Program-made: the position numbers and the translations under genes
The notes under the pieces: model-generated
The model's input: only the letters and a program-made list of their open reading frames with translations
Told to the model about the DNA's origin: nothing
The model's database searches: none
Part shown: piece by piece, positions 1-31,566 of the stretch
Position numbering within the stretch: the stretch's first letter is position 1
Layout: each line of letters opens with the position of its first letter
Source: Methanobacteriota archaeon
Lineage (GTDB): Archaea > Thermoplasmatota > Thermoplasmata > RBG-16-68-12
Assembly: GCA_005878385.1 (NCBI GenBank)
Contig: VBMN01000078.1
Location: 1 to 42,651, forward strand
Length of the DNA: 42,651 bases
Direction: 5' to 3'

Positions 1-7
1 GCCGAGC

Positions 8-2911
8 TCAGAGCTCGTCGTCCGTGGTGTTTTCGCTGCCAGCGTCCGACTGACCTTCGTCGTCCGAACCTTCGCCCGAGGGCTTCTTGATCACTTTCTT
101 TTGCACAACCGGCTGGGGCCCGATCGGTTTGCGGATCACCCGGCGCGGGATCGCTTCGGTGCCGCCTGGACCGCCGGACTGGGCGCCCGACGAACCGTAG
201 GGGGACGCCTGGCCTCCCGCGGGGCTCTCCGGGGGCGGGCTGCCTCCGGGACGTCGCGCCTGGATCACCGGGGCTGCACCCCCGCTCCCGCCTCCGCTCG
301 GCGGTCGGGGCGTCTCGCGCATGAGCGAACCGCACTTGTGGCAGACGTTGGCCGTGACGGAGTTGAGGGTGCCGCAGGTGGGGCACGGCTTCGAGCCCAT
401 CTTGCGCATCTCCTCTTCCTCGCGGAGCCAATCCTCGAATGTCACGAAGGTCGGCTGCTTGCGCCACCACTCCTGGAACTCGCGGTCAGACAACGCGCGG
501 CCGAGTTGCCGGGATGCTTCCTCCTTGAACTTCGTCACGACCTCGTCGTACTGGAGTCGCATCTTCTCCTGGTAGTCGGCCATCTCGACCTGACCGGTCG
601 CGAACTCGACACCGCACTCGGGGCATTGTTTCACGTCGACCGGGATCCAAGCCTGGCAGTTCGAGCACTTCGCCATGTCCTTCTCGAACTCGACACCGCA
701 CTTCGGGCACGACGTCGCGTCCTCAGGGATGAAGGCGCCGCACTCGCCGCACTCGACCATCTTGCCGAGGCCATAGATCTTCCAGTACAGCGTGACGCCG
801 ATCACCGCCGCGGCCGCTGCCGCGAGGATGATGAAGAACAGCCAATAGGGCAGGCCGAGGATCGGCACTGTTTGGTTCAGGAACGGCACGTTCTTTCGGA
901 CCGAGATGGTCTGTGTGCTCGGCTGGATAGACCCCGCCGTGGGCGTGACGACCACGCTGTAGGATCCGTCCTGCGTACCGGCGGGAACCATGATCATCCC
1001 CACGAACAAGCCTTGGTCTCCCGAGGCGGATTGGTTCGTCGCGACGACGGCCGTGCCGGAACGCAGCTCGATCGTCAGAGAGATGCCGACGATGGCGGCG
1101 TCACTTCCCGTGGCCTTTACGTATCCCGTCACGACAAGTTGGGATCCCGGCTCCACGGACTGGCCCGACCCGGGATTCTGAATCGCGACGTATCCGGCCG
1201 GAGGTGGTGCGACGTTCAGGGTGACGTTCGCGAAGTTGTTGTTCTCCTGGGCGGCCCCACCTTCGTCGATCGTGTTGAGCGGATCGACCACGAGCATGAG
1301 TGTCTGAGCACCGACTTGGTTGATCGCCGCCACGTTCAGGGTCTGGTTCACGGATCCGCCGGTGACGATCGTCAGTCCATTCACCCGCGCGACCTCGGAG
1401 CTGCGGTTCCCGTTCAGATAGGCGGCGATGGACACGGCACTCGCGTCCGTCTGGCCCCGGTTGTAGATCTTGGCGGTCACCGTGAACGGCTGGCTCTGGA
1501 TCACGTTCTGGGTGGAGCTGTAGTCCGTTTGTCGCAGCTCGAGATCGGGTCCCGTCCGGACTTGCACGGTGTTGAAGGTGTACGTGGCCCAGTGGTTGTT
1601 GTCTGCGACACTCACCGCCGGGTACGCGTTGAACGAGACGCCGTCCGTGACCGTCGCGGCCGCGTAGGTCAGAACCTCGCGGAAGTTCCCGAACGACTGT
1701 CCGTTCGGCAACGTCGCGGCTGTGATCTGATCTGTATACAGCGGGATCCTCGCGCGGCCGGTACTGTCCGTCCGGTTCCACGCGTTCAGACCGCTGGCGC
1801 TTCGGCCCAGGTACCACAGTGTGCGCGAGCTCGGGATCGACGAAGGCCCGTTGTCGGGATACTGCGCCGTCGCTCCGGTGGGACTCGACGATGACCAAAT
1901 CCCCGTGCCCGCCACCGCGAACGCGGTCCGGTCGAGGACCGTGGCATCGAGCCAGCGGAACAGATTCACCGCGCCGCCGGGCGCCGGCACAAACGCCGCT
2001 GTCCAGTTCGAGCTGTAGATCGGGTCCTGCGCCCGATCAATCGTGACGTTGTACAGGTACGCCGTCGATGTTCCGTCGACGTGGAATTCGTTGTGAATTC
2101 CGACGACGTTCGAGTAATCCACGCTAAGGTAAGAGTCGTACGCGTACACCGTGCTGGATCCGCTGACGGTCAGGTTGAAGTTCGCCGCACCGCCCCGGCC
2201 TCCCTCAGAGAACCGGCTGTCCTGGTAGATGCGGTCGATCGAGGATCGATAGAGGCTCGCGGTCGTCGACGCGGTCCATGCGATAATCGGGCCGTCGTTG
2301 TTGAGCTCCGAGTCAAGTCCCGAATTCTGGAGTTCCGTGTCGTTGAAGCCGGTGATCGTAGAGTCCGTGATGTTCAGCGAGGCGCCCGTCGCGTTGAACC
2401 ATCCTGGGAATTTCAGCATCGCTCCGTTCGACATGACGAACTGGCTGCCGGCTCCCGAAACGGTCAATGCGAGCTTCAAGTACGGATTGATCGCCGTTGG
2501 GTTGGTTGTGACGACCGAGTTGTCAAGAATCAAGGCGCCACCTGCATTCACCGTCAGGGCGTATCCCATGTGGCTAGCATCCTTCGAGAACTTGAGGCCC
2601 CCGTTGATCAAGGTGAGGCTGCCTCCGGAGTTGATCGTGATCGAACCGTCGACCGTGTAGAATACCCCACTGCAAACCTGGGGTGTGTTGATCGTCCAGT
2701 CCCCGGTGATGTTGATCCCGATCTGATCGCACGAGCCCGCCCGCGTAGCGGGGCTCAGGGCGACAATCGCCGCGAAGATCCCGCCAAGGGCGATGGACCA
2801 TACGATCAAGAGGCTGAGTGCCCTGCCATTCCGTCCGGCTCGGTTCGACATCCGAAGACCTCCCAAGGTCGAGTCCCGCAGAACCTCCGCAATACTGCGA
2901 CCGGTGGGCAT
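8..2911 (-). CDS. Large single-pass surface protein: beta-helix-like repeats, CARDB-like and Ig-like ectodomain, TM helix, cytoplasmic tail with three zinc ribbons and a G/P/S-rich acidic end
   Basis: 967-aa ORF with protein-like composition. N-terminal anchor LSLLIVWSIALGGIFAAIVAL. Repetitive G-x-L-x-L/N-S strands suggest a parallel beta-helix. CARDB-like stretch PDLELRQ..IYNRGQTDA..VDPLNTIDEGGAAQENNN. TM helix LPYWLFFIILAAAAAAVIGVTLYW. Ribbons CGECGAFIPEDATSCPKCG, CSNCQAWIPVDVKQCPECG and CPTCGTLNSVTANVCHKCG. A TATA box lies about 27 nt upstream of ATG 2911. Confidence 0.8.
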   Translation of the reverse strand: MPTGRSIAEVLRDSTLGGLRMSNRAGRNGRALSLLIVWSIALGGIFAAIVALSPATRAGSCDQIGINITGDWTINTPQVCSGVFYTVDGSITINSGGSLTLINGGLKFSKDASHMGYALTVNAGGALILDNSVVTTNPTAINPYLKLALTVSGAGSQFVMSNGAMLKFPGWFNATGASLNITDSTITGFNDTELQNSGLDSELNNDGPIIAWTASTTASLYRSSIDRIYQDSRFSEGGRGGAANFNLTVSGSSTVYAYDSYLSVDYSNVVGIHNEFHVDGTSTAYLYNVTIDRAQDPIYSSNWTAAFVPAPGGAVNLFRWLDATVLDRTAFAVAGTGIWSSSSPTGATAQYPDNGPSSIPSSRTLWYLGRSASGLNAWNRTDSTGRARIPLYTDQITAATLPNGQSFGNFREVLTYAAATVTDGVSFNAYPAVSVADNNHWATYTFNTVQVRTGPDLELRQTDYSSTQNVIQSQPFTVTAKIYNRGQTDASAVSIAAYLNGNRSSEVARVNGLTIVTGGSVNQTLNVAAINQVGAQTLMLVVDPLNTIDEGGAAQENNNFANVTLNVAPPPAGYVAIQNPGSGQSVEPGSQLVVTGYVKATGSDAAIVGISLTIELRSGTAVVATNQSASGDQGLFVGMIMVPAGTQDGSYSVVVTPTAGSIQPSTQTISVRKNVPFLNQTVPILGLPYWLFFIILAAAAAAVIGVTLYWKIYGLGKMVECGECGAFIPEDATSCPKCGVEFEKDMAKCSNCQAWIPVDVKQCPECGVEFATGQVEMADYQEKMRLQYDEVVTKFKEEASRQLGRALSDREFQEWWRKQPTFVTFEDWLREEEEMRKMGSKPCPTCGTLNSVTANVCHKCGSLMRETPRPPSGGGSGGAAPVIQARRPGGSPPPESPAGGQASPYGSSGAQSGGPGGTEAIPRRVIRKPIGPQPVVQKKVIKKPSGEGSDDEGQSDAGSENTTDDEL

Positions 2912-2935
2912 GTTGCGCGGGCCATCCGGGCCCGG

Positions 2936-2945
2936 TTTATAAATA
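2936..2945 (-). promoter_or_regulatory. TATA box (TTTATAAATA) for the 8-2911 gene; leaderless start
   Basis: A/T-only decamer in GC-rich DNA, centred about 29 nt upstream of ATG 2911. The same spacing recurs at about 9 other genes in the window. Confidence 0.55.
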
Positions 2946-3046
2946 GGTTACCGAGCGATTATCTATCGCGATACGGACCTGTTCTCGAGAAAAAGAACGA
3001 CGGGTTCCTATGGAGGAAAGATTTTTATCGTGATTCGTACATGGAA

Positions 3047-3090
3047 ATCGCGAGAAAACCGCGAAATTCGCGGAAAAATCGCGCCAAAAT
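3047..3090. promoter_or_regulatory. About 10-bp phased CGCG + A-tract units containing the inverted repeat CCGCGAA-A-TTCGCGG (3059-3073)
   Basis: Read directly: atCGCGAGAAAAcCGCGAAAttCGCGGAAAAAtCGCGCCAAAAt. It lies 110-150 bp upstream of the 2936 TATA box and just downstream of the stop of 3142-4287. Confidence 0.3.
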
Positions 3091-3141
3091 GCATCGTTCC
3101 ACGCGTGCGGGGGCGCGTTTGTACCCACCACTTCGTTCGGC

Positions 3142-4287
3142 TCAAATCACCTTCTTCTTAAGGACCTTCTTGACGCTCACAGGTGCCTTCTTCGCTCCCT
3201 TCTCATCGTCCCCGCTGAGGCGGTGGCCGCAGGCGTAACACATGATCGCATCCGCGGAGATCATCGTGCCACATGCGGGACAGGGGATTTCCGACTCGTT
3301 TTCCGTTTCCGAGGCTTCTTCCACATCCGATTCCTCGTGCAATCGGTGCCCGCAGGCGTAGCACATGATCGCATCCGCGGAGATCATCGTGCCACATGCG
3401 GGACAGGGGATTTCCGACTCACCTCCCGAGGCGGCCTCCGTCGTCACGGCTGGCTTCCCGGCGGCCTTCGCACTTTGAACCGCAACCACCGGAGCCGCCG
3501 TAGCGGTCTTCGGGGCGACCGACTGGGGGTTCACGGGGATGGGCTGCGGTCGTACGGCCGTAGGCACGGCGGTCGGTGAAACCACAACGCGACCCAAAAC
3601 GGCTGGAGTCGGACTCAAGGGAATCGACGCGGAGGCGCGCATCGATTGTTCCTGCGCAAGCATCTGTTTCTCCTTCTCGAGGAGGCGCTTGCCCTCATCG
3701 GCAATTTTCGCCCGAGCCGTCGCAATCGTTTCCTCTTCGGCCGCGAGCTTCTTCTCACGATCCATCAGCTCGCGACTTCGTTCGATTTGCGTTTGAAGAG
3801 TCGCCTTTTGTTCTTCGAGGAGCTTGACAATCTGTTCTTGCCGTCCCGCGATTTCGTTCTTGCGGGCTGCGATCTCCCGCACGTGCGCGACCGTCTCCGA
3901 ATCTCGATGGGCAATCTCTTCCTCGCGCTTCACGAGCGTGTCGAGCCTCTTCACGAGTTCCTGCTCCCGACTCACGAGTTGGCTTTCCTTCGTCAAGATT
4001 TCCTGTTTCGTCGCGTCGAATTCCTGGTCTCTCTGATCCAATCCTCGTTCCTTCTGCTCGAGTTCCTTCTCACGAGCGCGAAGGCCCTTTTCACGGCCGA
4101 CGACCGAATCGCGTTCGTCCGCGAGCGCGGTCCGCTCCTGTTCCATCATCCGGCGGTCCTCTTCCAGCTTCGAGGCTTGCTCCTGGAGAGACGATTCGCG
4201 TTCCTTGAACTCGGTGTCTCGCGACCTCAGGCTCTCCTCGAGCTTTTTCAGTGCGTCCAGCGCGTCTAGGATTGATGCTTCGGCCAT
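3142..4287 (-). CDS. Coiled-coil protein with a P/A/V-rich linker, two identical C-terminal zinc ribbons and a basic tail
   Basis: 381-aa ORF. About 215 aa are E/K/R/L/Q heptad-rich. ESEIPCPACGTMISADAIMCYACGHRL occurs twice. GGAGGT (4296-4301, minus strand) lies 8 nt before ATG 4287, indicating an operon with the upstream KaiC-like gene. Confidence 0.8.
   Translation of the reverse strand: MAEASILDALDALKKLEESLRSRDTEFKERESSLQEQASKLEEDRRMMEQERTALADERDSVVGREKGLRAREKELEQKERGLDQRDQEFDATKQEILTKESQLVSREQELVKRLDTLVKREEEIAHRDSETVAHVREIAARKNEIAGRQEQIVKLLEEQKATLQTQIERSRELMDREKKLAAEEETIATARAKIADEGKRLLEKEKQMLAQEQSMRASASIPLSPTPAVLGRVVVSPTAVPTAVRPQPIPVNPQSVAPKTATAAPVVAVQSAKAAGKPAVTTEAASGGESEIPCPACGTMISADAIMCYACGHRLHEESDVEEASETENESEIPCPACGTMISADAIMCYACGHRLSGDDEKGAKKAPVSVKKVLKKKVI
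3221..3420. repeat. Intragenic direct duplication: 77-bp units at 3221-3297 and 3344-3420, period 123 bp
   Basis: The two units differ at 2 positions when read by eye. Each encodes one zinc-ribbon module. Confidence 0.9.
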
Positions 4288-4356
4288 GTGCGGCGACCTC
4301 CGGTGTTCGTTCGTGGAGCCGAGCTCTCAGGCATCGGCCGTGGAATCGACATGGGA

Positions 4357-5277
4357 TCACATTCCTCCCGCTTCGAAGATCGGACCCAAGACGGTGAGGC
4401 CGCCCTTACGAATCTCGATCGCGTGCTTCTCCATCGAGTGATCCGTCGAACGCATCTTCTCCACCTGGAGATACCGAACGAGCTTTCCTCGAGAGTGGTC
4501 GAGGCCGAGCAACACGATGCCGTCGACGAGGAAGCCCTCATTGCCGAGGAGCTGGCTTTCCCCGTCCGGGCTTCGTTCCATCACGACGAGGGAGGTCAGC
4601 TCGTTGTCGCGGAGCATCTTGAAGAAATAGAACATCCGCTTGCGCATGTTCGTCGTGTTCTCCATCAGTGAGTACAGGGCCCCGAGCGAGTCCAAGGTGA
4701 AGATCTTGAACTTGTGTCCGTGGACTTTCCGGTAGTGGATGATCATCCGTTCGATGAAGGCGAGGTAATCCGTCTGATCCTCCGGACCGACGACCGCATC
4801 GATCTCGCGCAAATCCGTGAAGTCACTGATCTGCATGTTCATCGAGAGCTCGACGCCGAGCGATTCCATGTTCCGTAGGTGGGACTGGACCGTTTCCTCG
4901 AGCGTGGTGTACAGACCAAACTCCCCGGTGTCCTTCAGGTATCGCGACATGAGCGTGTAGCAAAAGGACGTCTTCATGGAACCGGGAGGGCCGGTCACGA
5001 GGATCACCTTCGGCGGCGAAATGTCGGTGCGGATCACTTTGTCAAGTCCATCAATCGCATTGCGGAAGGCCATGGCCACGCCGTATAGGTCATTGGACGG
5101 GTCCAAGTCCAACTTAATCGTTTTGCGCTGATTATCTACCGGATGACTTATCATTCTCTGGACTGAGTCCGGAAAGTCTTTGTACGCTGGTCCAGGATAG
5201 AAACACGTCGACAAGTCGAGGTGTCGGCTTACGCCAGCGAAGGAAACGAAGGTCTGTCCCGTCTGTGATTCTTCCAT
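4357..5277 (-). CDS. KaiC/RecA-like single-domain ATPase
   Basis: Walker A-like VILVTGPPGSMKTSF (Met replaces the usual Gly before Lys). Acidic pair in YTTLEET. Walker B FKIFTLDSLGAL. The overall KaiC-like layout is preceded by NAIDGLDKVI. ATG 5154 (MISHPVDNQ) is a likely alternative start that avoids overlapping the divergent gene's first zinc knuckle. Confidence 0.8.
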   Translation of the reverse strand: MEESQTGQTFVSFAGVSRHLDLSTCFYPGPAYKDFPDSVQRMISHPVDNQRKTIKLDLDPSNDLYGVAMAFRNAIDGLDKVIRTDISPPKVILVTGPPGSMKTSFCYTLMSRYLKDTGEFGLYTTLEETVQSHLRNMESLGVELSMNMQISDFTDLREIDAVVGPEDQTDYLAFIERMIIHYRKVHGHKFKIFTLDSLGALYSLMENTTNMRKRMFYFFKMLRDNELTSLVVMERSPDGESQLLGNEGFLVDGIVLLGLDHSRGKLVRYLQVEKMRSTDHSMEKHAIEIRKGGLTVLGPIFEAGGM

Positions 5278-5293
5278 CGAGGCGGAAGCCCGC

Positions 5294-6688
5294 GTGTGTC
5301 CTTCCTGTCAGACCGACCTGACGCTGTTCGACCTCGCGGGCGGTCCTCAAGAACCCATCGAGGTGCCCGTGAGAGACGGCCGGAGCATCGACGAGATCCT
5401 CGCCTCGATCATGAACGGCAAGGAAGATCATCGGGAAATCATCGAATCGCTGAAGAGCGTGGCGCGCAACACGTCCGAATCCGGAGAAACCGCGACCGTT
5501 TCCGGGTCCGCCTCCATGATCTCGACCGCACGCGAACTCGGCGAGAAATTCCTCTGTCCCGTGTGCGAGACGCTCGTCGCCGCCGACGCCACCGTCTGTC
5601 CGGCCTGCGGAGCCGAGTTCTCCGAGGGCTCGGCCACCGAGTATGAATGTCCCGTCTGCAAGGCGTCTGTGCCGGCGGACGCCGACCAGTGCCCCAACTG
5701 TGGAGTGCGATTCGCCGATGACAGCGGGGTGGCCAAAGTAGCCCCCCCGGTCCCCGGTCTATCGGGAGCGGTGGTGGACGTGTCGGGGGCGGGAAGGGCT
5801 CCCGCGTTGGCGACCGTCGCCGTGGCGCCGCCTTCCGCGAAACCAACCCGTTCGCCGTTGCAGAATCGGCTGGAAGCGCTCCGGCAGACTCGTCGAGAGG
5901 CGGATCGTCGTATCCCCACGGGCGACCGGAAGCTCCTCTACCGCGAGCTCCCCAAGCTCGTGAACGAGGTGAAGCCCCTCCTGGTCTCCGCGAAACGGAT
6001 CGGGCTCGAGATCGAAGAAGGGAAGCGAATCATCAACGATGCGATTCAGGCAGGGAAAGGGCGCGACATCGAGCGGGCGGTCACGCTCATCGCGGACGCC
6101 CGGCGGGCCCTCGACATCGCCTTCGTGGACTTCATCGGCGGGGGGATCGAGCGTTTCGCGCTAGAGATCCGAGCGGCGAAGGGAGAGGGAGGCGTCGCCG
6201 CCGTGACCCCCGGACTCCTCGAGGCGGTCAGTCGGATGGAGGCGGGTGACTATGACGGCGCCTGGGACACCTACCAGATCGTCCTCGACCGGTTTGAGTC
6301 CGAAGCGAAGGACTTCCATGATGCCCGGAAGACGATCGAAGACGGCGACCGACTCGCACACGAGGTGCGCGGGATGGGGATGGATGTCTCGGCCTCGGAA
6401 CGACTGTTGCGCCAAGCGCGCGAGTCCCTAGAACGGAGGGATGTCGCCACCGCGACGCGTATCGGCACGCAGGCATACGACCGCCTGAAGCGAGATGTCC
6501 CCGAGTTCGTGCAAGAAGAGATGCGAAAGGCCCGGAGCCTGTTGCTCGATCTGAAGCTGAAAGGGAACGACCTCGCCAAGCCGATCGGGATCCTTAAGGA
6601 GGCGAGCACGCTCGTCAAGCGGGAAGCGTGGGCCGAGGCGCTCCGCCAGATTCGGGATTTCCACAAGGAGATTCAACGCCTCGGATGA
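5294..6688 (+). CDS. Multi-zinc-ribbon protein with P/A-rich linker and C-terminal alpha-helical (MIT/TPR-like) repeats
   Basis: Ribbons CPVCETLVAADATVCPACG and CPVCKASVPADADQCPNCG. The first ribbon is split: CPSC follows GTG 5294, but its partner CPVC is encoded in frame at 5255-5266, upstream of any canonical start. Helical repeats include GMDVSASERLLRQARESL and GNDLAKPIGILKEASTLV. Confidence 0.75.
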   Translation: MCPSCQTDLTLFDLAGGPQEPIEVPVRDGRSIDEILASIMNGKEDHREIIESLKSVARNTSESGETATVSGSASMISTARELGEKFLCPVCETLVAADATVCPACGAEFSEGSATEYECPVCKASVPADADQCPNCGVRFADDSGVAKVAPPVPGLSGAVVDVSGAGRAPALATVAVAPPSAKPTRSPLQNRLEALRQTRREADRRIPTGDRKLLYRELPKLVNEVKPLLVSAKRIGLEIEEGKRIINDAIQAGKGRDIERAVTLIADARRALDIAFVDFIGGGIERFALEIRAAKGEGGVAAVTPGLLEAVSRMEAGDYDGAWDTYQIVLDRFESEAKDFHDARKTIEDGDRLAHEVRGMGMDVSASERLLRQARESLERRDVATATRIGTQAYDRLKRDVPEFVQEEMRKARSLLLDLKLKGNDLAKPIGILKEASTLVKREAWAEALRQIRDFHKEIQRLG

Positions 6689-6693
6689 CCTGG

Positions 6694-6712
6694 GCGTCCC
6701 GTCACGGGACGC
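6694..6712. terminator. Hairpin GCGTCCCG-TCA-CGGGACGC between convergent genes
   Basis: Perfect 8-bp stem with a 3-nt loop. The loop is the TGA stop (minus strand) of 6702-8672, and the hairpin sits 6 nt after the stop of 5294-6688. No oligo-T tract is present, so a terminator role is uncertain. Confidence 0.3.
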
Positions 6713-8672
6713 GGATCACTTCCATCTCTCGCTCCAACACCTTCAATTCCTGTTCCTTCACGGTGGCGGATCCCAACGAGATGATCAGGGCGTAATGGCT
6801 TTCCGAGATGGCGTCCAAAAGACGTCGGACGAACTTGAGGACCGCGTCGAAGGAATTGTTCGACACCAGGTACTCGATTCCGTCGAGCAACACGGCGCCC
6901 CGCGGCTGTTTGGACATGAAGTCCTCGATTTCGTACACGATCCGCTCGAGTGCGGGAGCAATCGTGTCTTCGGCGGATCCTTCCCGATCGGTCAGCCACA
7001 GGACCCGTTCCGCAGAGAGATCGTAGGTCTCGCGGACTCGCTTCGGATTCGTCCGGGTGATGACGAGTCCGCCGCCGCGACCGCCGAGAAATGCCGCGAA
7101 CCGACGGAACGCCTCGGCAGGCCGCTCCTCTTCGATCAGGTAGCTCCTTCCCGGCGACAGGCCCTGCAGGCTGATCGGTTCCGCGCGCTCCTGGACCGCC
7201 ACGGGCGGTGGCGCCGCCTCCGACGGCGGCTCGGCGAGGACCTCTCTCACCAGGTCCTCCGTGATCGGACGACCCATCATCGAAGAGAAGGCCACGACCC
7301 GATTGAGCGCTCCCCCGAGTTCGCGGACATTCTCCTCGACGAGGCTCGCAATGAGCTTCAGCACGCCCGGCTCGACCGTCACCTTGGCTTCGCGCGATCG
7401 GCGTTCGAGGATTGCCACCCGCGTGGCCAATTCGGGGGGTTCGATTCCGGCGACGAGGCCGGATTCGAACCGAGAGATGAGGCGTTCGTCGAGGTTTGCA
7501 ATCGCCTTCGGGGGACGATCGCTCGCCAGCACGATCTGCTTCCCGGCGCCGTGGAGGTCGTTGAATGCGTGGAACAGTTCTTCGTGGACCTCCGTCATGC
7601 CGCTCAGAAACTGGATGTCGTCGATGAGGAGACAATCCACCCCTCGAACCCGATCTCGAAAGGCCCCCAACGTGCCCTTCTCGCGGGCGTCCGTGAGACC
7701 GGTTCCGAAGGCCTCGCACGTGAGGTAGAGCACCTTCGCGCCGGTCTCGTGCGACGCGATGTAGTTCCCGATCGCATGGAGAAGATGTGTCTTGCCGAGG
7801 CCCGGACCCGACGTGATCAGGAGGGGGTTGTAGGCCTTCGCCGGCTGTTTCGCTACCGCAATCGCGGCCGTGTGAGCGAACCGGTTGCTCTCTCCGACCG
7901 TGAAGCCTTCGAACGTGAACGCCGGTGCGAGGTTCGTCGCGGCATCCCGCGGAGGGGCCGGTTCCTCGAGGGCTTTTTCGACCTCCTCCGAGGAGGGCAG
8001 CGGAGCTTCGGACTTCATCTCTCGCCGCTGTTTCATGACGAGTTCCAGGACTTTCTTCGTCCGCTCCTTGAACTCGCGTTCCCGCGAGCGTTCGAGGCTG
8101 CGTCGGGACTCGACTCGCCGCATGCTCTCCGTGGCCTCCCGGAGCAACTCGACCTCGGCATCGATGTCTGGATGCCGGATCGGATCGCGGAGCCTCTCCC
8201 GGAGAATTGCGGCCCGCGACTCGAAGCCGGTCACGTCCAGGCTCGCGAGGGCCTCGGAGGCCGCTTCCGCCTTTTTGACGGCTTCCCGCATCGCCAGGAC
8301 CGAGGCGGTCAACACACTCGGCTCCGCGGCGAGGTTCGCCTCGATCACCGAGACGTCGTACGACCGCTCCTTCCACGTCCGAAGTTGGGCCTCGATATCC
8401 CCGCGGTCCAGGGCTTGCGGGACCTTCGTCTTCTTCACGACCTTCGAGGGCCGTTCCAGGACCGCATCCGCGTACTCGCGGACGAGTCCGTCCATGTCCA
8501 CCCGCGCGTGAAGCTCGAGGACGCACGATTCGTCATAGGAGTCCTGCCACACCTTCTTCAGGGCGTTCCGCCCGCGGTCTTGTGCCTCGTCCCGCTGGTG
8601 CAGGCTCGCCTCCGGGTTCCCTCCCCGGAGGAGCACGATTCCCTCCGACCGTTTGCCGCCCGCGGTTCGCAC
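6702..8672 (-). CDS. DnaA-type AAA+ ATPase with a helical/coiled-coil N-terminal half and a C-terminal DUF835-like domain (no DnaA domain IV)
   Basis: DnaA domain III motifs: FTFEGFTVGESNRFAHTAAIAVA, GPGLGKTHLLHAIGN, CLLIDDIQFL, IVLASDRPP, ERLISRFESGL, NVRELGGALNRV. The C-terminus GRSYLIEEERP..VITRTNP..LWLTD..VLLDGIEYL..LKFVRRL..LKVLEREMEV matches the DUF835 pattern. The N-terminus probably extends upstream of GTG 8672. Confidence 0.85.
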   Translation of the reverse strand: MRTAGGKRSEGIVLLRGGNPEASLHQRDEAQDRGRNALKKVWQDSYDESCVLELHARVDMDGLVREYADAVLERPSKVVKKTKVPQALDRGDIEAQLRTWKERSYDVSVIEANLAAEPSVLTASVLAMREAVKKAEAASEALASLDVTGFESRAAILRERLRDPIRHPDIDAEVELLREATESMRRVESRRSLERSREREFKERTKKVLELVMKQRREMKSEAPLPSSEEVEKALEEPAPPRDAATNLAPAFTFEGFTVGESNRFAHTAAIAVAKQPAKAYNPLLITSGPGLGKTHLLHAIGNYIASHETGAKVLYLTCEAFGTGLTDAREKGTLGAFRDRVRGVDCLLIDDIQFLSGMTEVHEELFHAFNDLHGAGKQIVLASDRPPKAIANLDERLISRFESGLVAGIEPPELATRVAILERRSREAKVTVEPGVLKLIASLVEENVRELGGALNRVVAFSSMMGRPITEDLVREVLAEPPSEAAPPPVAVQERAEPISLQGLSPGRSYLIEEERPAEAFRRFAAFLGGRGGGLVITRTNPKRVRETYDLSAERVLWLTDREGSAEDTIAPALERIVYEIEDFMSKQPRGAVLLDGIEYLVSNNSFDAVLKFVRRLLDAISESHYALIISLGSATVKEQELKVLEREMEVIRVP

Positions 8673-8920
8673 GGTCCGGACATAGCCCGAGAACGAGTAC
8701 TTTTTCAGGTCGAGGAGGAGTTGTTTCAGCGCGTTCGCCCCGCCCCGAGTTGTGCGGATGAGTTTGCCCTCTGGGAGCAGGAGGTCTTGGGGCGTAGGTT
8801 TCCCTCGGTCCTTGCGTCCATCTCCCGGGCCCCTCTAAAAAGCTTGCAACCTAGTTCCCCCGTTTGAGAACACAGGCCTGGCTCCCGGGGGAAACCCGCC
8901 ACCGGCGCGATGCAAAAAGG

Positions 8921-8928
8921 CTATTACA
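8921..8928 (+). promoter_or_regulatory. Possible TATA-like element (CTATTACA) for pgk
   Basis: Centred about 28 nt upstream of ATG 8952. The box is weak. Confidence 0.35.
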
Positions 8929-8951
8929 TTGCGGCTTTCTGTCTCATTCTG

Positions 8952-10205
8952 ATGGCCCGGGATTTCTTCACGATGGACGATTTCGACCTCTCGGGCCGTA
9001 CCGTGCTCCTCCGGGTGGATATCAACTCGCCCGTCGACCCGGCGACGGGGCAGCTCCTGAACGACGCGCGGATCCGGGAGCACCTCACGACGATCCGCGA
9101 GCTGCGGCTTTCGAAGGTCGTGCTGTTGGCGCACCAGTCCCGCCCGGGGAAGGACGACTTCACGACCCTCGAGGCGCACGCGGAACGGATCGCCGCCCTC
9201 CTCGGCCGGCCCGTGCGGTACGTCTCGAGCCTGTTCGGAAGGCCCGCGATCGAGGCGATCGGAGCGATGGCGGTCGGGGACGTCGTCGTGTTGGAGAACA
9301 CCCGATTCTACGCAGAGGAGGAGGCCCTTGCGGATACAAAGCTCGAGAAGATGGCGAAGACGCATATCGTGCAGCGCCTCGCACCCCACGCCGAATACTT
9401 CATCCTCGACGCCTTCGCCGCGGCCCATCGCGCTCAGCCCAGCCTCGTCGGATTTTGCGACGTCCTCCCGTCCCTCGCGGGTCGGGTGATGGAGCGCGAG
9501 CTGACGATGCTCACCCAGGCGGTCCAGGATCCGGAGCGGCCAAAGGTCGCTCACCTCGGCGGCGTGAAGGCGGACGATTCGATCGCGGTCGCCCGGCACA
9601 TGCTGGAGAAGAACATCGTGGACACCGTGCTCACGTCCGGCGGGGTCGCGAACATCTTCTTGGACGCCTCCGGCGTCGACCCGGGGGAGCCCACGACGGA
9701 GTTCATGCGACGCGAAGTGGACGACTATGACGCCATTCAGACGGAATGCAAGGAAGTCCTCCGGAAATTTTCGAAGAGAATCCTCCTGCCGACGGACGTG
9801 GTCCTCAACGACGACGGAGGAAGGAAGCCCGTGTCCGTGGACGCGCTCCCTGCGAAGCTGCTCGTCTATGACATCGGACTCGACACCATCGCCCACTACG
9901 CAGACGTAATCCATCAAGCGAAGACGATCTTCTTCAACGGTCCCGCCGGGGTCTTCGAGCTTGAACCGTTCTCCGTCGGCACGCGGGAACTCCTCACCGC
10001 GGTCGCTGAGTCCGACGGACTGTCGGTCGTGGGAGGAGGTCACACGGTGGCGGCCGTGGAGCGGTTTGGGCTTCAGGATCGGATTGACCATGTGAGCACC
10101 GGTGGCGGGGCACTGATCAATTTCCTCGCCGGTCGAGAGCTGCCCCTGGTCACCGCGCTGCAACATTCGTACAAAAAGTTCTCGAAGGGCGGGTCCAAGG
10201 CCTGA
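8952..10205 (+). CDS. pgk: Phosphoglycerate kinase (archaeal type)
   Basis: N-terminus MARDFFTMDDFDLSGRTVLLRVDINSPV, plus later GGGHT/STGGGA-type motifs (VVGGGHTVAAV, VSTGGGALINFL). The ORF track starts at 8910. I prefer ATG 8952 because of N-terminal homology and the TATA position. Confidence 0.9.
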   Translation: MARDFFTMDDFDLSGRTVLLRVDINSPVDPATGQLLNDARIREHLTTIRELRLSKVVLLAHQSRPGKDDFTTLEAHAERIAALLGRPVRYVSSLFGRPAIEAIGAMAVGDVVVLENTRFYAEEEALADTKLEKMAKTHIVQRLAPHAEYFILDAFAAAHRAQPSLVGFCDVLPSLAGRVMERELTMLTQAVQDPERPKVAHLGGVKADDSIAVARHMLEKNIVDTVLTSGGVANIFLDASGVDPGEPTTEFMRREVDDYDAIQTECKEVLRKFSKRILLPTDVVLNDDGGRKPVSVDALPAKLLVYDIGLDTIAHYADVIHQAKTIFFNGPAGVFELEPFSVGTRELLTAVAESDGLSVVGGGHTVAAVERFGLQDRIDHVSTGGGALINFLAGRELPLVTALQHSYKKFSKGGSKA

Positions 10206-10238
10206 TCTCCGGAACCAAGCCTCGCTCCCGTCAATGCG

Positions 10239-10246
10239 TTATATAT
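10239..10246 (+). promoter_or_regulatory. TATA box (TTATATAT) for the permease gene
   Basis: Centred about 24-27 nt upstream of ATG 10267. It lies inside the longer ORF-track model (start 10234), which argues for the downstream start. Confidence 0.5.
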
Positions 10247-10266
10247 CGACCGCGTTCGGTCGGCCG

Positions 10267-11640
10267 ATGGTGCGACTGAGGAGACCGCCTGAGTGGGGTG
10301 TGGAACCGGTCCCCGACTCGCTCCGTATCCTAAGGACGTTCGACCTGTTTGTCCTGTGGTCCAGCCTCGGGGCGGGACTCTTAGTCCTCGCGGCGGGTGC
10401 GCTCCTCGTGACCGCGTTCGGTTTTTCCCTCTGGGAGGCGGCAATCGTATCGCTCGGCGGTTCGATCGTGGGAAGTCTGCTCCTCGCCGCGGCGGGTCAC
10501 CACGGCAGTCGAGCGGGCGTACCGACGATGGTCAGCCTGCGTCCGATCCTTGGGCGCGCCGGGTCCTACGTACCGACCGCCTTGAACATCCTGCAACTCC
10601 TCGGATGGACCGCGTTTGAGCTGCTCATTATGGCTCAGGCGGCCGCAATCCTGACGGGGAATATTCTCGGCCCTTGGACGGCCGCGTTCTTTGTGCCCGT
10701 CTGGGGAGCAATCACGATGGCCCTGGCCTTGGGCGGTCCCCTGGCGGTCGTTAGGAGCTGGCTCGAGCGGTTCGCGATCTGGATCGTGTACGGATCGACG
10801 ATCGCCGTCGCGATCGCTCTTGGCCTACACGGCCTGAACCTGAATTTCCGTCCTCCGGCAGTCGCCGGCGCTTTCACGGGGACGGGGTCGCTCCTCCTCG
10901 GCCTGGATCTCGTCGTCGCGATGCCGATCTCTTGGTGGCCCTTGATCTCTGACTACAACCGTTTCGCACGGTCACCGAAAGGAGCCGCCGCGGGGACGAG
11001 CCTCGGTTACATTGCCGCGAACACGTCCTTCTACCTCCTCGGGGCGGCCTTGGTGTTCCTCGGCATCACCGCGTTCGGGTTGAACCCGCAAGTTCCCATT
11101 GCATTCCTGGCGACGCTTGGCCTCTTGGGCCTCAGCGCCCTCCCGTTGATCGCGATCCTGGTCGACGAGACGGACAATGCCTTCGCAGATGTGTATTCCG
11201 CGGCCGTGTCCGTCCAGAATCTTTCGATGCGACGCAAACAGGCGACGACGATTGTGGCCTCCACCTTCATCGGCATCGCGGCCGCATGGTACCTGGTCGC
11301 CTCGGGCCAAGGTATTGGCGGACCCTATGAGACGTTCCTCCTCCTGATTGGAGGCCTCTTCGTCCCGCTCCTGGGAGTCGTGATCGCGGAGACCTTTTTC
11401 GTGCGTCGCGGAGGGTATCCGCGAAGCGATTTCTTCGAGGGGGCGCCCCGCTGGCGGTGGCCCGCCTTCGCGAGTTGGATCCCCGGTACGGCGCTGTACT
11501 TCGTGATCGTCTGGTTCGCCCTGCCGATCGGCGCGACCCTGCCTTCGTTCGCCCTCGCCGCCGGTCTCCACGTTGTGTTCTCGAAAATCGAACAAGGATT
11601 CGCGCGGTCGTCGCCCGTCGTATCGGACGGCGAGCCGTGA
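10267..11640 (+). CDS. NCS1-type nucleobase/cytosine-purine permease-like transporter
   Basis: About 12 predicted TM segments. N-terminus EWGVEPVPDSLRILRTFDLFVLWSS resembles purine-cytosine permease/CytX-like proteins. Substrate unknown. Confidence 0.75.
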   Translation: MVRLRRPPEWGVEPVPDSLRILRTFDLFVLWSSLGAGLLVLAAGALLVTAFGFSLWEAAIVSLGGSIVGSLLLAAAGHHGSRAGVPTMVSLRPILGRAGSYVPTALNILQLLGWTAFELLIMAQAAAILTGNILGPWTAAFFVPVWGAITMALALGGPLAVVRSWLERFAIWIVYGSTIAVAIALGLHGLNLNFRPPAVAGAFTGTGSLLLGLDLVVAMPISWWPLISDYNRFARSPKGAAAGTSLGYIAANTSFYLLGAALVFLGITAFGLNPQVPIAFLATLGLLGLSALPLIAILVDETDNAFADVYSAAVSVQNLSMRRKQATTIVASTFIGIAAAWYLVASGQGIGGPYETFLLLIGGLFVPLLGVVIAETFFVRRGGYPRSDFFEGAPRWRWPAFASWIPGTALYFVIVWFALPIGATLPSFALAAGLHVVFSKIEQGFARSSPVVSDGEP

Positions 11641-11716
11641 ACGTCCATCTGCAACGGTCCCTCATGTGAGATCAGGAGGCCCGGACGTGGCCATTTCACG
11701 CGGGGTCCGACGATAG

Positions 11717-11725
11717 CTATTTTAC
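11717..11725 (+). promoter_or_regulatory. TATA-like element (CTATTTTAC) for LemA
   Basis: Centred 27 nt upstream of ATG 11748. Confidence 0.45.
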
Positions 11726-11747
11726 GTCGGGGCCCATGGGAGAATCG

Positions 11748-12305
11748 ATGACCCTCACGCTAGGCTCCCGCAGGCGCTTGACCCTCGTCGGCATCCTCGT
11801 GATCGTCCTCGTGTTGCTCGCGTGGATCGTCGCCGCCTACAATTCCCTCGTGGCCAAGGACCAGGGGGTGACGGCCCAATGGGCGCAGGTCGAGAACCAA
11901 TACCAACGGAAGATCGACCTGATCCCAAGTCTCGTAGGGGCCGTGACCCAGTACCAACAGTTTGAGCGTTCGACGTTGGAGAACATCACGCGTTTGCGCT
12001 CCCAATGGTTGAACACATCCGGCATCGACCAGCGGATCAACACGTCACAGAGCCTCGACCAGAACCTCTTCGCGATTCGGGTCACGTATGAGAACTACCC
12101 GGACCTCCACTCGGACCAGCTCGTCGCTGGATTGATGGACGAACTCGCGGGCACGGAGAATCGGATCGCGGTGGAACGGATGTGGTACAACGATGCGGTC
12201 CGTTCCTATAACACGGCCGTCATCTCGTTCCCGAATTCCCTCTTGGCAGGCTCATTCGGCTTCCAGCCTCGTAAGTATTACGATCCGATCCCCGGCGGTC
12301 CTTGA
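11748..12305 (+). CDS. LemA family protein
   Basis: N-terminal TM followed by YNSLVAKDQGVTAQWAQVENQYQRKIDLIPSLV..ENYPDLHSDQ..YNTAVISFPNSL, the classic LemA pattern. The ORF-track start at 11736 is 12 nt upstream. Confidence 0.85.
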   Translation: MTLTLGSRRRLTLVGILVIVLVLLAWIVAAYNSLVAKDQGVTAQWAQVENQYQRKIDLIPSLVGAVTQYQQFERSTLENITRLRSQWLNTSGIDQRINTSQSLDQNLFAIRVTYENYPDLHSDQLVAGLMDELAGTENRIAVERMWYNDAVRSYNTAVISFPNSLLAGSFGFQPRKYYDPIPGGP

Positions 12306-17296: not shown

Positions 17297-17325
17297 GCGT
17301 GACCCCTGCATGGAGCGACATCGCG

Positions 17326-31501: not shown

Positions 31502-31537
31502 GACCACGAGCGTCCAAGCGAGCCCAGAGCGCAACCC

Positions 31538-31547
31538 TTTTTTCGAA
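31538..31547 (+). promoter_or_regulatory. T-rich TATA-like element (TTTTTTCGAA) in the 65-bp divergent spacer
   Basis: Centred 25 nt upstream of GTG 31567 (UbiA). It is the only A/T-rich element between the divergent STAND and UbiA genes. The consensus match is weak. Confidence 0.3.
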
Positions 31548-31566
31548 GCGAGGAGCTCGCGGCGCG

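What the first reader, a model, noticed from the sequence alone, without database searches (positions are those of the whole stretch)
6702..8672. Bacterial-type DnaA AAA+ module in an archaeal gene, with domain IV replaced by DUF835
The central about 225 aa match DnaA domain III motif for motif:
- FTFEGFTVGESNRFAHTAAIAVA
- Walker A GPGLGKTHLLHAIGN
- Walker B LLIDDIQFL
- IVLASDRPP
- box VII ERLISRFESGL
- sensor 2 NVRELGGAL (bacterial consensus NVRELEGAL)

The DnaA-box-binding domain IV is absent. In its place is a textbook DUF835 pattern: SYLIEEERP..ITRTNP..LWLTD..LLDGIEYL..LKFVRRL. Archaea initiate replication with Orc1/Cdc6, so this looks like a horizontally acquired DnaA/Hda-type nucleotide switch repurposed for something other than origin binding.
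Basis: partly seen in the sequence, partly recalled or inferred. Interest (0 to 1): 0.72.

Follow-up and report, generated by a model that had tools for sequence, protein, structure and literature searches.

The report
Archaeal DnaA-type ATPase fused to DUF835
An archaeon of the Thermoplasmata group carries a bacterial-style DnaA ATPase motor that has lost its DNA-recognition domain, is fused to an inactivated KaiC-like domain, and sits in a conserved gene cluster with a KaiC ATPase and zinc-ribbon proteins, which points to a repurposed ATP switch rather than a replication initiator.

Summary
ORF 6702-8672 (minus strand) encodes a DnaA domain III AAA+ module (Pfam Bac_DnaA E=1.7e-57; 53-54% identical to B. 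subtilis DnaA domain III; model TM 0.93). After a disordered linker comes DUF835 (E=1.3e-27). DnaA domains I and IV are absent.

The frame stays open to about 8795 and encodes a conserved N-terminal domain that has no solved-structure match and is weakly PATAN/DUF2226-like.

This is not a one-off. The fusion is a diverse family found only in Thermoplasmatota among the top 80 of 269 matching GTDB species. The AAA+ module is fused in 73/74 loci. The neighbourhood is conserved: a convergent double-zinc-ribbon protein (63/71), a KaiC-family ATPase (51/64), a coiled-coil zinc-ribbon protein, and a transmembrane CARDB protein with cytoplasmic zinc ribbons.

ATPase and arginine-finger residues are conserved. 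The ssDNA-contact positions are relaxed (T and M in this protein). I found no DnaA-box enrichment, no defence-system hits and no viral relatives.

Best reading: an ATP-driven oligomerising switch or scaffold working with the KaiC and zinc-ribbon partners, not an origin binder. The anatomy is solid; the mechanism is inferred. No paper in the searchable library describes this architecture. Novelty: new variant of a known kind.

The parts
6702..8795 (-). Whole gene for the multidomain protein (about 697 codons counted from the Thr codon ACG at 8793-8795; stop codon at 6702-6704). The true initiation codon is unresolved.
   Evidence: ORF list. Open frame upstream with a conserved peptide. Full-length homologs at 60-92% identity cover it.
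8418..8795 (-). N-terminal alpha/beta domain (beta-alpha-beta4-alpha-beta-alpha) of unknown function, weakly PATAN/DUF2226-like.
   Evidence: AlphaFold model pLDDT 92.8, pTM 0.84. No significant PDB fold match: best E=0.02, TM<=0.42. 3 of 37 family members hit DUF2226 (best 3.2e-5) and 2 of 37 hit DUF4388 (best 6.3e-4). Fused upstream of the AAA+ module in 61/67 loci.
7938..8435 (-). Helical middle region ('MID'), including one long helix. It occurs as 4-5 tandem copies in related giant proteins.
   Evidence: Secondary structure of the full-length model. phmmer domain mapping shows nterm-mid x4-5-aaa architectures. No Pfam family.
7218..7937 (-). DnaA domain III AAA+ module with lid (ORF residues 246-485). 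Walker A GPGLGKT lies at 7788-7808. Also contains Walker B LLIDD, sensor 1 SDR, box VII RLISRF (arginine finger) and sensor 2 NVRELGGAL.
   Evidence: Pfam and NCBIfam. PDB sequence alignments. Foldseek TM 0.93, rmsd 1.5 A to 8bv3. Residue conservation by class.
7158..7217 (-). Low-complexity Pro/Ala/Glu-rich linker of variable length, predicted disordered.
   Evidence: Variable, gapped columns in the alignment. pLDDT below 50 for the equivalent residues 533-566 of P0037. Linker length ranges widely across the family, median about 20 residues, up to 164.
6705..7157 (-). DUF835 domain (P-loop-less, KaiC-like 'iKaiC' according to the literature).
   Evidence: PF05763 E=1.3e-27. No Walker A in 189/190 family DUF835 segments. 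Marginal profile hits to KaiC and FlaH (E about 1) at the Walker-B-like strand. Listed as 'DUF835 (iKaiC)', an output domain of archaeal response regulators, in PMC5847659.
5294..6688 (+). Convergent neighbour: a protein with N-terminal zinc ribbons (5 CxxC motifs; DZR) and a C-terminal helical domain. Its stop lies 13 nt from the stop of the fusion gene.
   Evidence: Pfam DZR and Zn_ribbon_3. CxxC positions. Same position and orientation in 63/71 loci, including distant lineages.
4357..5277 (-). Single-domain KaiC-family ATPase. The conserved part starts at Met69, so the likely gene is 4357-5073. It has a deviant Walker A, GPPGSMKT.
   Evidence: PF06745 E=1.7e-34. NCBIfam KaiC families. Present at the same relative position in 51/64 loci. 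GPPGSMKT in 49/56 and GPPGAMKT in 5/56 neighbours, with the LEE and Walker B Asp conserved.
3142..4287 (-). Coiled-coil protein with two C-terminal zinc ribbons, downstream of the KaiC gene on the same strand.
   Evidence: Pfam Zn_ribbon_3 E=2.7e-17. Weak SMC/coiled-coil-type hits. Conserved position in 41/53 loci.
8..2911 (-). Transmembrane surface protein. It has an N-terminal signal-anchor, an extracellular region with a CARDB domain, a second TM segment at residues 680-698, and a cytoplasmic tail with three zinc ribbons.
   Evidence: Pfam CARDB and DZR. Hydrophobic segments and CxxC map. Conserved position in 24/40 loci, and nearby in the rearranged locus L087.

Best explanation
The gene encodes a cytoplasmic multidomain ATPase of about 700 aa, found in Thermoplasmatota archaea. 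Its domain order is: N-terminal interaction-type domain (weakly PATAN/DUF2226-like), helical region, DnaA-type AAA+ module, flexible linker, then DUF835 (a KaiC-like domain without a P-loop).

Shown:
- The AAA+ module is a true DnaA domain III with intact ATP-binding, hydrolysis and arginine-finger residues.
- The DNA-recognition domain IV and the helicase-recruiting domain I of DnaA are absent.
- The gene lies in a conserved cluster with a double-zinc-ribbon protein, a KaiC-family ATPase, a coiled-coil zinc-ribbon protein, and a membrane-spanning CARDB protein with cytoplasmic zinc ribbons.

Inferred:
- ATP binding makes the AAA+ modules assemble head-to-tail through the arginine finger, as DnaA protomers do.
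- This assembly clusters the tethered DUF835 domains and the N-terminal domains.
- The DUF835 domain docks on, or co-assembles with, the neighbouring KaiC-family ATPase.
- The zinc-ribbon proteins act as adaptors that connect the complex to the membrane protein.
- ATP hydrolysis resets the assembly.

On this reading it is a nucleotide-dependent switch or scaffold in a KaiC-type signalling or assembly module, not a replication-origin binder.
For: - Architecture and ATPase identity.
- Catalytic and oligomerisation residues conserved across 55 representative fusion proteins: Walker A Lys 55/55, Walker B DD 54/55, arginine finger 49/55, sensor 2 Arg 53/55.
- The region holding the initiator-specific helices aligns without gaps to B. 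subtilis DnaA.
- Domain IV and domain I absent.
- ssDNA-contact positions relaxed. B. subtilis I190 is I/V/L in 48/48 bacterial DnaAs but in only 27/55 fusions. K222 is basic in 48/48 bacterial DnaAs but in only 33/55 fusions. The window protein has Thr and Met at these positions.
- Conserved neighbourhood in 81 loci (84 fetched, 3 duplicates excluded): zinc-ribbon neighbour 63/71, KaiC 51/64. It is retained at 38% identity where the outer flanks differ, and stays nearby after rearrangement.
- 'Rosetta stone' support: related proteins carry the same N-domain, MID and DnaA AAA+ module with C-terminal DZR zinc ribbons in place of DUF835.
- DUF835 is listed as an inactivated KaiC output domain of archaeal response regulators (PMC5847659). 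It has no P-loop in 189/190 segments.
- The linker is disordered and of variable length.
Against: - No experiment exists, and no interaction was computed.
- Profile-profile comparison of DUF835 with the neighbouring KaiC family was not significant. The PDB profile hits to KaiC and FlaH are only marginal, E about 1. The KaiC-like nature of DUF835 therefore rests mostly on the literature.
- The fusion gene is not co-transcribed with its partners. It is convergent with the zinc-ribbon gene, and the KaiC operon is transcribed separately.
- About half of the family keeps hydrophobic or basic residues at the ssDNA-contact positions, so nucleic-acid binding is not excluded.
- KaiC is missing from the expected position in 13/64 loci.
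Confidence: 0.5

Rival explanations
1. It is a replication protein: either an initiator that uses partner zinc-ribbon proteins for DNA recognition, or an Hda-like regulator of initiation or the cell cycle, possibly coupled to the KaiC-type ATPase.
For: 53-54% identity to DnaA domain III, with all nucleotide-sensing motifs and the initiator-specific region retained. Roughly half of the family keeps DnaA-like residues at the ssDNA-contact positions. Zinc ribbons are encoded next door, or are fused in related proteins.
Against: No domain IV or domain I. Scores below the DnaA and Hda equivalog cut-offs: 309 versus 343.9, and 90 versus 194.8. The window protein has Thr and Met at the ssDNA-contact positions. 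DnaA-box-like sites number 1 against 0.39 expected. No origin-like repeats near the gene. The neighbours include a membrane surface protein.
Confidence: 0.12
2. It regulates assembly of a type IV pilus-like or other surface structure. The PATAN-like N-domain and the KaiC-like partner would act on a PilB/ArlI-type motor ATPase, as PATAN does in cyanobacteria and ArlH does in the archaellum. This is a more specific version of the best explanation.
For: Weak DUF4388 (PATAN) and DUF2226 hits for the N-domain. PATAN binds the PilB1 motor (bioRxiv 10.1101/2021.06.11.447907). A T2SSE ATPase or a Pilin_N gene lies just beyond the cluster in L001, L003, L086 and L088. The cluster includes a CARDB surface protein. 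A related giant protein combines MshEN (GspE_N-type) with DnaA AAA+ modules.
Against: The PATAN-like signal appears in only 2-3 of 37 members, and the fold search found nothing. The T2SSE adjacency is seen only among fairly close relatives (62-72% identity) and not in L004 or L087. It may be plain synteny.
Confidence: 0.15
3. It is part of an anti-virus defence system or a mobile element that happens to use a DnaA/IstB-like ATPase.
For: AAA+ ATPases of the DnaA/IstB clade occur in transposons (IstB hit 30.8 bits). There are very weak PADLOC hits to mad8 (E=3e-4, a P-loop stretch only).
Against: No meaningful PADLOC match for any of the five cluster proteins. No relatives in 2.9 million viral contigs. 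The chromosomal position next to PGK and other housekeeping genes is stable across many species. Composition is ordinary.
Confidence: 0.03
4. It is an artefact: a chimeric assembly or bacterial contamination that joins a bacterial dnaA fragment to an archaeal DUF835 gene.
For: None beyond the unusual combination.
Against: The same fusion sits in one open reading frame in 73/74 independently assembled loci, in more than 120 full-length database proteins, and on contigs up to 2.3 Mb.
Confidence: 0.01

Closest known systems
Bacterial chromosomal replication initiator DnaA (domain III, AAA+)
   Same: The ATPase module. It is 53-54% identical to B. subtilis DnaA domain III with a gapless alignment, shares Walker A/B, sensor 1, box VII arginine finger and sensor 2, and has the same fold (TM 0.93). 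It very probably binds ATP and oligomerises in the same way.
   Different: It has no domain IV (DnaA-box HTH) and no domain I/II. Instead it has an unrelated N-terminal domain, a helical region and C-terminal DUF835. It scores below the DnaA equivalog cut-off. The ssDNA-contact positions are not conserved. It is archaeal, and it lies next to KaiC and zinc-ribbon genes rather than dnaN/oriC.
Hda / HdaA (DnaA-related inactivator of DnaA)
   Same: Both are DnaA-family AAA+ modules lacking domain IV that serve as regulators rather than origin binders. One homolog (P0116) gives a weak Hda_lid hit, E=1.3e-4, below Pfam's cut-off.
   Different: Hda is about 230-250 aa, consisting of a clamp-binding motif plus the AAA+ module only. 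This protein scores far higher against DnaA than against Hda (309 versus 90 bits; Hda cut-off 194.8) and carries three extra domains. Archaea have no beta-clamp.
DUF835 / 'iKaiC' output domains of archaeal signalling proteins (REC-DUF835, REC-PAS-DUF835; Galperin et al. 2018, PMC5847659)
   Same: The C-terminal domain is the same Pfam family. It occurs as a terminal module attached to an upstream switch domain, is found in Thermoplasmata and methanogens, and lacks a P-loop.
   Different: The upstream switch here is a DnaA-type AAA+ ATPase rather than a phospho-receiver. I found no paper in the searchable library that mentions DUF835 together with DnaA.
KaiC-like ATPase signalling modules of archaea (Makarova, Galperin and Koonin 2017, as cited in PMC5847659; I could not read the paper itself)
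   Same: A single-domain KaiC-family ATPase is encoded beside proteins carrying inactivated KaiC-like domains and small zinc-binding proteins.
   Different: Whether that work lists this DnaA fusion is unknown, because the paper is not held. The KaiC here has a deviant Walker A, GPPGSMKT.
Orc1/Cdc6, the archaeal initiator
   Same: Both are AAA+ ATPases of the initiator clade.
   Different: No Cdc6-family hit and no winged-helix DNA-binding domain. The sequence groups with DnaA, not with Orc1/Cdc6.

Membership tests
DnaA (chromosomal replication initiator, TIGR00362) | AAA+ domain III with Walker A/B, sensor 1, box VII arginine finger and sensor 2 | tested here: met
   Pfam Bac_DnaA E=1.7e-57. 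Gapless alignment to B. subtilis domain III. TM 0.93. Residues conserved family-wide.
DnaA (chromosomal replication initiator, TIGR00362) | C-terminal domain IV (helix-turn-helix, DnaA signature) that binds DnaA boxes | tested here: not met
   The TIGR00362 match stops at model position 337 of 437. No Bac_DnaA_C hit. The PROSITE-type DnaA signature regex is absent from fusion proteins but present in the bacterial hits.
DnaA (chromosomal replication initiator, TIGR00362) | N-terminal domain I (DnaB/DiaA interaction) | tested here: not met
   No DnaA_N hit. The N-terminal domain model has a different topology and no PDB match.
DnaA (chromosomal replication initiator, TIGR00362) | Whole-protein score above the curated equivalog cut-off | tested here: not met
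   309.3 bits against a cut-off of 343.9.
DnaA (chromosomal replication initiator, TIGR00362) | Conserved ssDNA-contact residues (B. subtilis I190 and K222; E. coli V211 and K243) | tested here: not met
   The window protein has Thr and Met. Across fusions the positions are 27/55 hydrophobic and 33/55 basic, against 48/48 and 48/48 in bacterial DnaAs. The roles of these residues come from my own knowledge of the DnaA literature.
DnaA (chromosomal replication initiator, TIGR00362) | Association with an origin (clustered DnaA boxes) | tested here: not met
   TTWTNCACA gives 1 match against 0.39 expected in the window. No origin-like repeat arrays in 1-12000.
Hda (TIGR03420) | Short protein made of a clamp-binding motif plus the AAA+ module, scoring above the Hda cut-off | tested here: not met
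   90.2 bits against a cut-off of 194.8. The protein is about 700 aa with three additional domains.
DUF835 (PF05763) | Match to the family profile above the gathering score | tested here: met
   96.6 bits against 33.1, E=1.3e-27, covering profile positions 20-136 of 136. Homologs score the same.
Inactivated KaiC-like ('iKaiC') domain | KaiC/RecA-type fold with loss of the P-loop | tested here: inconclusive
   The P-loop is absent in 189/190 segments. KaiC and FlaH appear only as marginal hits, E 0.8-1.1. hhalign against the neighbouring KaiC family is not significant. The assignment comes from PMC5847659.
Orc1/Cdc6 | Orc1/Cdc6-type AAA+ module plus C-terminal winged helix | tested here: not met
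   No Cdc6_C or ORC family hit at E<=1. The generic AAA_22 match is only 27 bits.
PATAN (DUF4388) / DUF2226 | Match of the N-terminal domain to the family profile | tested here: inconclusive
   The window sequence itself has no hit. 3 of 37 members hit DUF2226 (best 3.2e-5) and 2 of 37 hit DUF4388 (best 6.3e-4). There is no solved-structure match.
Known anti-phage defence systems (PADLOC) | Match of cluster proteins to defence-system models | tested here: not met
   Only P-loop-level or coiled-coil-level hits, E 3e-4 to 7e-3.

The most novel reading that the evidence does not exclude
A bacterial-type initiator ATPase has been wired to a KaiC-family ATPase in a whole archaeal phylum. It would act as a cell-cycle or replication-timing device. 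DnaA-like ATP-dependent filaments would form on single-stranded or origin DNA through the zinc-ribbon partners, and would be gated by a KaiC-type ATPase or phospho-timer. That would amount to a second, DnaA-derived layer of replication control alongside Orc1/Cdc6.
Probability: 0.08. Interest if true: 0.9.

Novelty: new variant of a known kind. Interest (0 to 1): 0.62.

Why it matters
DnaA is regarded as the bacterial initiator, and archaea use Orc1/Cdc6. This finding shows a well-conserved, catalytically intact DnaA domain III maintained across the Thermoplasmatota, stripped of its DNA-recognition domains and coupled to KaiC-type and zinc-ribbon components. That has three consequences:
- It offers a natural experiment on what the DnaA ATP switch can do apart from opening origins.
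- It flags hundreds of database entries named 'chromosomal replication initiator protein DnaA' in archaeal MAGs as probable misannotations.
- It gives a concrete, testable partner set for two poorly understood archaeal components: DUF835/iKaiC and single-domain KaiC-like ATPases.

Tried and rejected
- Similarity between the fusion protein and the neighbouring zinc-ribbon protein: none.
- hhalign of the DUF835 profile against the neighbouring KaiC family: not significant.
- Foldseek with the full-length model returned only AAA+ matches, so the N- and C-terminal domains could not be assessed that way. The separate N-domain model found no solved homolog.
- A profile search with the N-domain in the large protein database returned only fragments of the same family and no new architectures.
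- A broad DUF835 alignment was too divergent for the genome scan. A narrower alignment worked.
- NJ tree of AAA+ modules. Bacterial DnaAs cluster together and the archaeal fusions form several deep groups. The midpoint root falls among fast-evolving tandem forms and no Hda/DnaC/Orc1 outgroup was available, so I draw no conclusion on the direction or donor of transfer.
- Programmed -1 frameshifting as the explanation for the out-of-frame ATG. The window and L007 have a G_GGA_AAC heptamer in the right register, but L014, L028 and L036 have no ATG at all. Frameshifting therefore cannot explain the family-wide pattern.
- The key paper on KaiC-like hubs (mBio 2017) is not held, so I could not check it.
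- I could not test whether the genomes carrying the fusion also encode Orc1/Cdc6, because only the flanks of each locus are accessible.
Full report
**1. Observation**

The ORF at 6702-8672 lies on the minus strand and is 656 aa from a GTG. The evidence for the two domains is:
- Pfam gives Bac_DnaA at residues 249-408 (E=1.7e-57) and DUF835 at residues 533-650 (E=1.3e-27, 96.6 bits against a cut-off of 33.1).
- NCBIfam's DnaA equivalog matches at 309 bits, but only over model positions 48-337 of 437, and below its cut-off of 343.9.
- Competing families score far lower: Hda 90 bits, IstB 49, DnaC 14. No Orc1/Cdc6 family appears.
- The best solved relatives are B. subtilis DnaA (E=5e-75), then T. 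maritima and A. aeolicus DnaA.
- A full-length AlphaFold model superposes on B. subtilis domain III with TM 0.93 and rmsd 1.5 A at 54% identity.

**2. The gene is longer than stated**

Homologs carry a conserved N-terminal extension. In the window the same frame is open up to a TAG at 8835-8837. It encodes TPQDLLLPEGKLIRTTRGGANALKQLLLDLKKYSFSGYVRT upstream of the GTG at 8672.

The window and its closest GTDB relative (L007, an independent MAG) differ at 7 positions in this stretch, and all 7 are synonymous. The stretch is therefore coding.

Modelled with a diverse alignment, this N-terminal domain folds confidently (pLDDT 92.8, pTM 0.84). It has no significant match in the PDB by fold (best E=0.02) or by sequence profile. 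Three of 37 family members weakly hit DUF2226 and two hit DUF4388, which is the PATAN domain. PATAN is a protein-interaction output domain that binds a type IV pilus motor ATPase (bioRxiv 10.1101/2021.06.11.447907). I treat this relationship as a lead, not a result.

The overall domain order is:
- N-terminal domain.
- Helical region with no family assignment.
- AAA+ module.
- Disordered linker of variable length.
- DUF835.

**3. Distribution**

The fusion is not a singleton. More than 120 full-length database proteins at 60-100% identity share the architecture. Where named, they are called 'DnaA/Hda family protein', 'DUF835 domain-containing protein' or 'chromosomal replication initiator protein DnaA', from Thermoplasmata archaea.

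An exhaustive search of 50%-identity representatives finds dozens of distinct clusters of the fusion, down to about 33% identity. True bacterial DnaAs appear at 47-53% identity over the AAA+ module.

A scan of one genome per GTDB species found 269 genomes with a relative. The best 80 are all Thermoplasmatota MAGs: Thermoplasmata, uncultured Methanomassiliicoccales, Proteinoplasmatales SG8-5 and similar. In these loci the AAA+ module is fused upstream of DUF835 in 73/74 cases and the N-domain in 61/67.

Other points on origin:
- No relatives occur in the viral contig collection.
- GC content at the gene is ordinary.
- The nearest bacterial DnaAs come from several phyla: Desulfurobacterium, Acidimicrobiia, Actinomyces and Clostridia.
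- My NJ tree has no outgroup, so the donor and direction of transfer remain open.

Because DnaA is universal in bacteria and this family is confined to one archaeal phylum, an ancient bacteria-to-archaea transfer is the parsimonious inference.

**4. Neighbourhood**

The gene order in the window is:
- CARDB/zinc-ribbon membrane protein (8-2911, minus).
- Coiled-coil zinc-ribbon protein (3142-4287, minus).
- KaiC-family ATPase (4357-5277, minus).
- Zinc-ribbon plus helical protein (5294-6688, plus).
- The fusion gene (minus).
- PGK (8910-10205, plus).

Across 81 loci (84 fetched, 3 duplicates excluded), counting only those with enough flanking sequence:

| Neighbour | Loci with it in the expected position |
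|---|---|
| Convergent zinc-ribbon gene | 63/71 |
| KaiC gene | 51/64 |
| Coiled-coil zinc-ribbon gene | 41/53 |
| CARDB protein | 24/40 |
| PGK | 34/50 |

In a lineage at 38% identity the outer flanks differ, but the trio of fusion, zinc-ribbon and KaiC genes persists. In another lineage the KaiC operon has moved 8 kb away but remains nearby, and the zinc-ribbon neighbour is kept.

Related proteins combine the same N-domain, repeated helical modules and a DnaA AAA+ module with C-terminal DZR zinc ribbons instead of DUF835. This fusion independently links the AAA+ module to zinc-ribbon partners.

Features of the partner proteins:
- The KaiC neighbour has an unusual but conserved Walker A (GPPGSMKT in 49/56), with the catalytic LEE and the Walker B Asp retained.
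- The CARDB protein has two hydrophobic segments and a cytoplasmic tail with three zinc ribbons.
- None of the five proteins matches known defence systems.

**5. What the AAA+ module can still do**

Across 55 representative fusions:
- Walker A Lys: 55/55.
- Walker B DD: 54/55.
- Sensor 1 Asp: 49/55.
- Box VII arginine finger: 49/55.
- Sensor 2 Arg: 53/55.

The region containing the initiator-specific helices aligns to DnaA without gaps. ATP binding, hydrolysis and DnaA-style head-to-tail assembly are therefore expected.

The two positions that contact ssDNA in B. subtilis DnaA (I190 and K222, numbering verified on the 8btg alignment; their role is from my knowledge of the literature) behave differently. 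They are I/V/L and K/R in 48/48 sampled bacterial DnaAs. In the fusions they are only 27/55 and 33/55, and the window protein has Thr and Met. The E. coli R245-equivalent position varies even among true DnaAs, so I give it no weight.

The window shows no DnaA-box enrichment and no origin-like repeats near the gene.

**6. Mechanism**

I commit to an ATP-dependent oligomerising switch or scaffold.
- Shown: the domain anatomy, the intact ATPase, the loss of the DNA-recognition domains, and the conserved cluster.
- Inferred: ATP-driven self-assembly clusters the flexibly tethered DUF835 and N-terminal domains. DUF835 is classed as an inactivated KaiC domain used as a signalling output (PMC5847659) and has no P-loop in 189/190 segments. 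It would engage the KaiC-family ATPase. The zinc-ribbon proteins would connect the assembly to the membrane-spanning CARDB protein.

Weak points:
- The DUF835-KaiC relationship is only marginal in my own tests.
- The genes are neighbours but not one operon.
- No interaction was computed.

Rivals are a replication-related role, a more specific role in controlling pilus-like surface structures (a T2SSE gene lies just beyond the cluster in several relatives), defence or mobile-element functions, and artefact. The last two are effectively excluded.

**7. Novelty**

Searches of the held literature found no description of this architecture. The terms tried were DUF835 with DnaA; DnaA with Thermoplasmata or Methanomassiliicoccales; Bac_DnaA with archaea; and DnaA with KaiC. 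The 2017 paper on KaiC-like hubs could not be read.

The proteins are in public databases under automatic names, several of which ('chromosomal replication initiator protein DnaA') are probably wrong. I rate it a new variant of a known kind: a DnaA-family AAA+ ATPase in a new architecture, a new conserved context and an unexpected domain of life. Interest is 0.62.

**8. Side observation on the start codon**

In 11 of about 70 species loci, including the window, there is no in-frame ATG, GTG or TTG between the upstream stop and the conserved N-domain. Some have the usual ATG out of frame, some have an in-frame TGA, and some have ATC in its place. A conserved GAGG-type motif lies 4-7 nt before an invariant ACG (the Thr of TPQD). 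This suggests non-AUG initiation, or that the annotated ATG of relatives is not the real start. It is unresolved.

Noticed in passing
window 8793-8837 (minus strand); also L007, L012, L014, L028, L029, L032, L033, L034, L036, L052: There is no canonical in-frame start codon ahead of the conserved N-terminal domain in 11 of about 70 species. In the window and L007 the ATG (8819-8821) is out of frame. L012, L028 and L029 have an in-frame TGA. L014, L028 and L036 have ATC where relatives have ATG. The stretch is nevertheless under purifying selection: 7 of 7 window-versus-L007 differences are synonymous. An SD-like GAGGG (8802-8806) lies 6 nt before an invariant ACG (8793-8795), which suggests non-AUG initiation.
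   Followed up: partly
window 8798-8804 (minus strand): A slippery heptamer G_GGA_AAC sits in the correct register for a -1 frameshift from the out-of-frame ATG into the body frame, and is shared with L007. It is probably coincidental, because other start-less lineages have no ATG at all.
   Followed up: partly
window about 8832-8876 (minus strand), between the fusion gene and PGK: An upstream element of about 45 nt, GTTCTCAAACGGGG(G/A)AACTAGGTTG.AA.CTTTTTAGAGGGG, is nearly invariant among relatives whose proteins are only 73-91% identical. It contains a TATA-like TTTTTA, and is probably a promoter or regulatory element.
   Followed up: no
window 4357-5277 (minus strand): The KaiC-family neighbour has a conserved deviant Walker A, GPPGSMKT, with Met where the last Gly normally is (49/56 loci; GPPGAMKT in 5). 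The listed ORF start is probably too far upstream, because conservation begins at Met69 (about 5073).
   Followed up: partly
window 3221-3297 and 3344-3420: A 77-nt direct repeat at 97% identity lies inside the coiled-coil zinc-ribbon gene. It encodes a recently duplicated zinc ribbon (ESEIPCPACGTMISADAIMCYACGHRL, twice).
   Followed up: no
database proteins P0133, P0137 (Gemmatimonadota MAG), P0143, P0150, P0156, P0199, P0209, P0218, P0219; locus L085: Other non-canonical DnaA AAA+ architectures exist. There are tandem double Bac_DnaA proteins of about 650 aa. There are giants of 1876-1990 aa with MshEN plus two Bac_DnaA modules. There are proteins of 1100-1400 aa with the same N-domain, 4-5 helical repeats, one Bac_DnaA module and C-terminal DZR zinc ribbons.
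   Followed up: partly
window 17299-18144 (+) and 18145-19554 (-): A Ras/Arf/Roc-family small GTPase sits next to an Elp3-like radical SAM gene. The same pair lies in synteny in relatives L086 and L088.
   Followed up: no
window 35993-37765 (-) and 38432-39727 (-): A single protein combines a Ser/Thr kinase, an FHA domain and a PP2C phosphatase. It lies two genes from a von Willebrand A protein, with a 218-aa ORF (37779-38435) between them. This may be a signalling module.
   Followed up: no
window 28745-31618 (-): A 957-aa STAND-like NTPase (AAA_16/AAA_22) with TPR repeats. It is not an Orc1/Cdc6.
   Followed up: no
L087 2499-8136: In a distant relative's locus the gyrase genes are called as several fragments (HATPase_c, DNA_gyraseB, Toprim plus intein, DNA_topoisoIV, DNA_gyraseA_C). 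This points to an intein plus frameshifted gene calls in that assembly.
   Followed up: no
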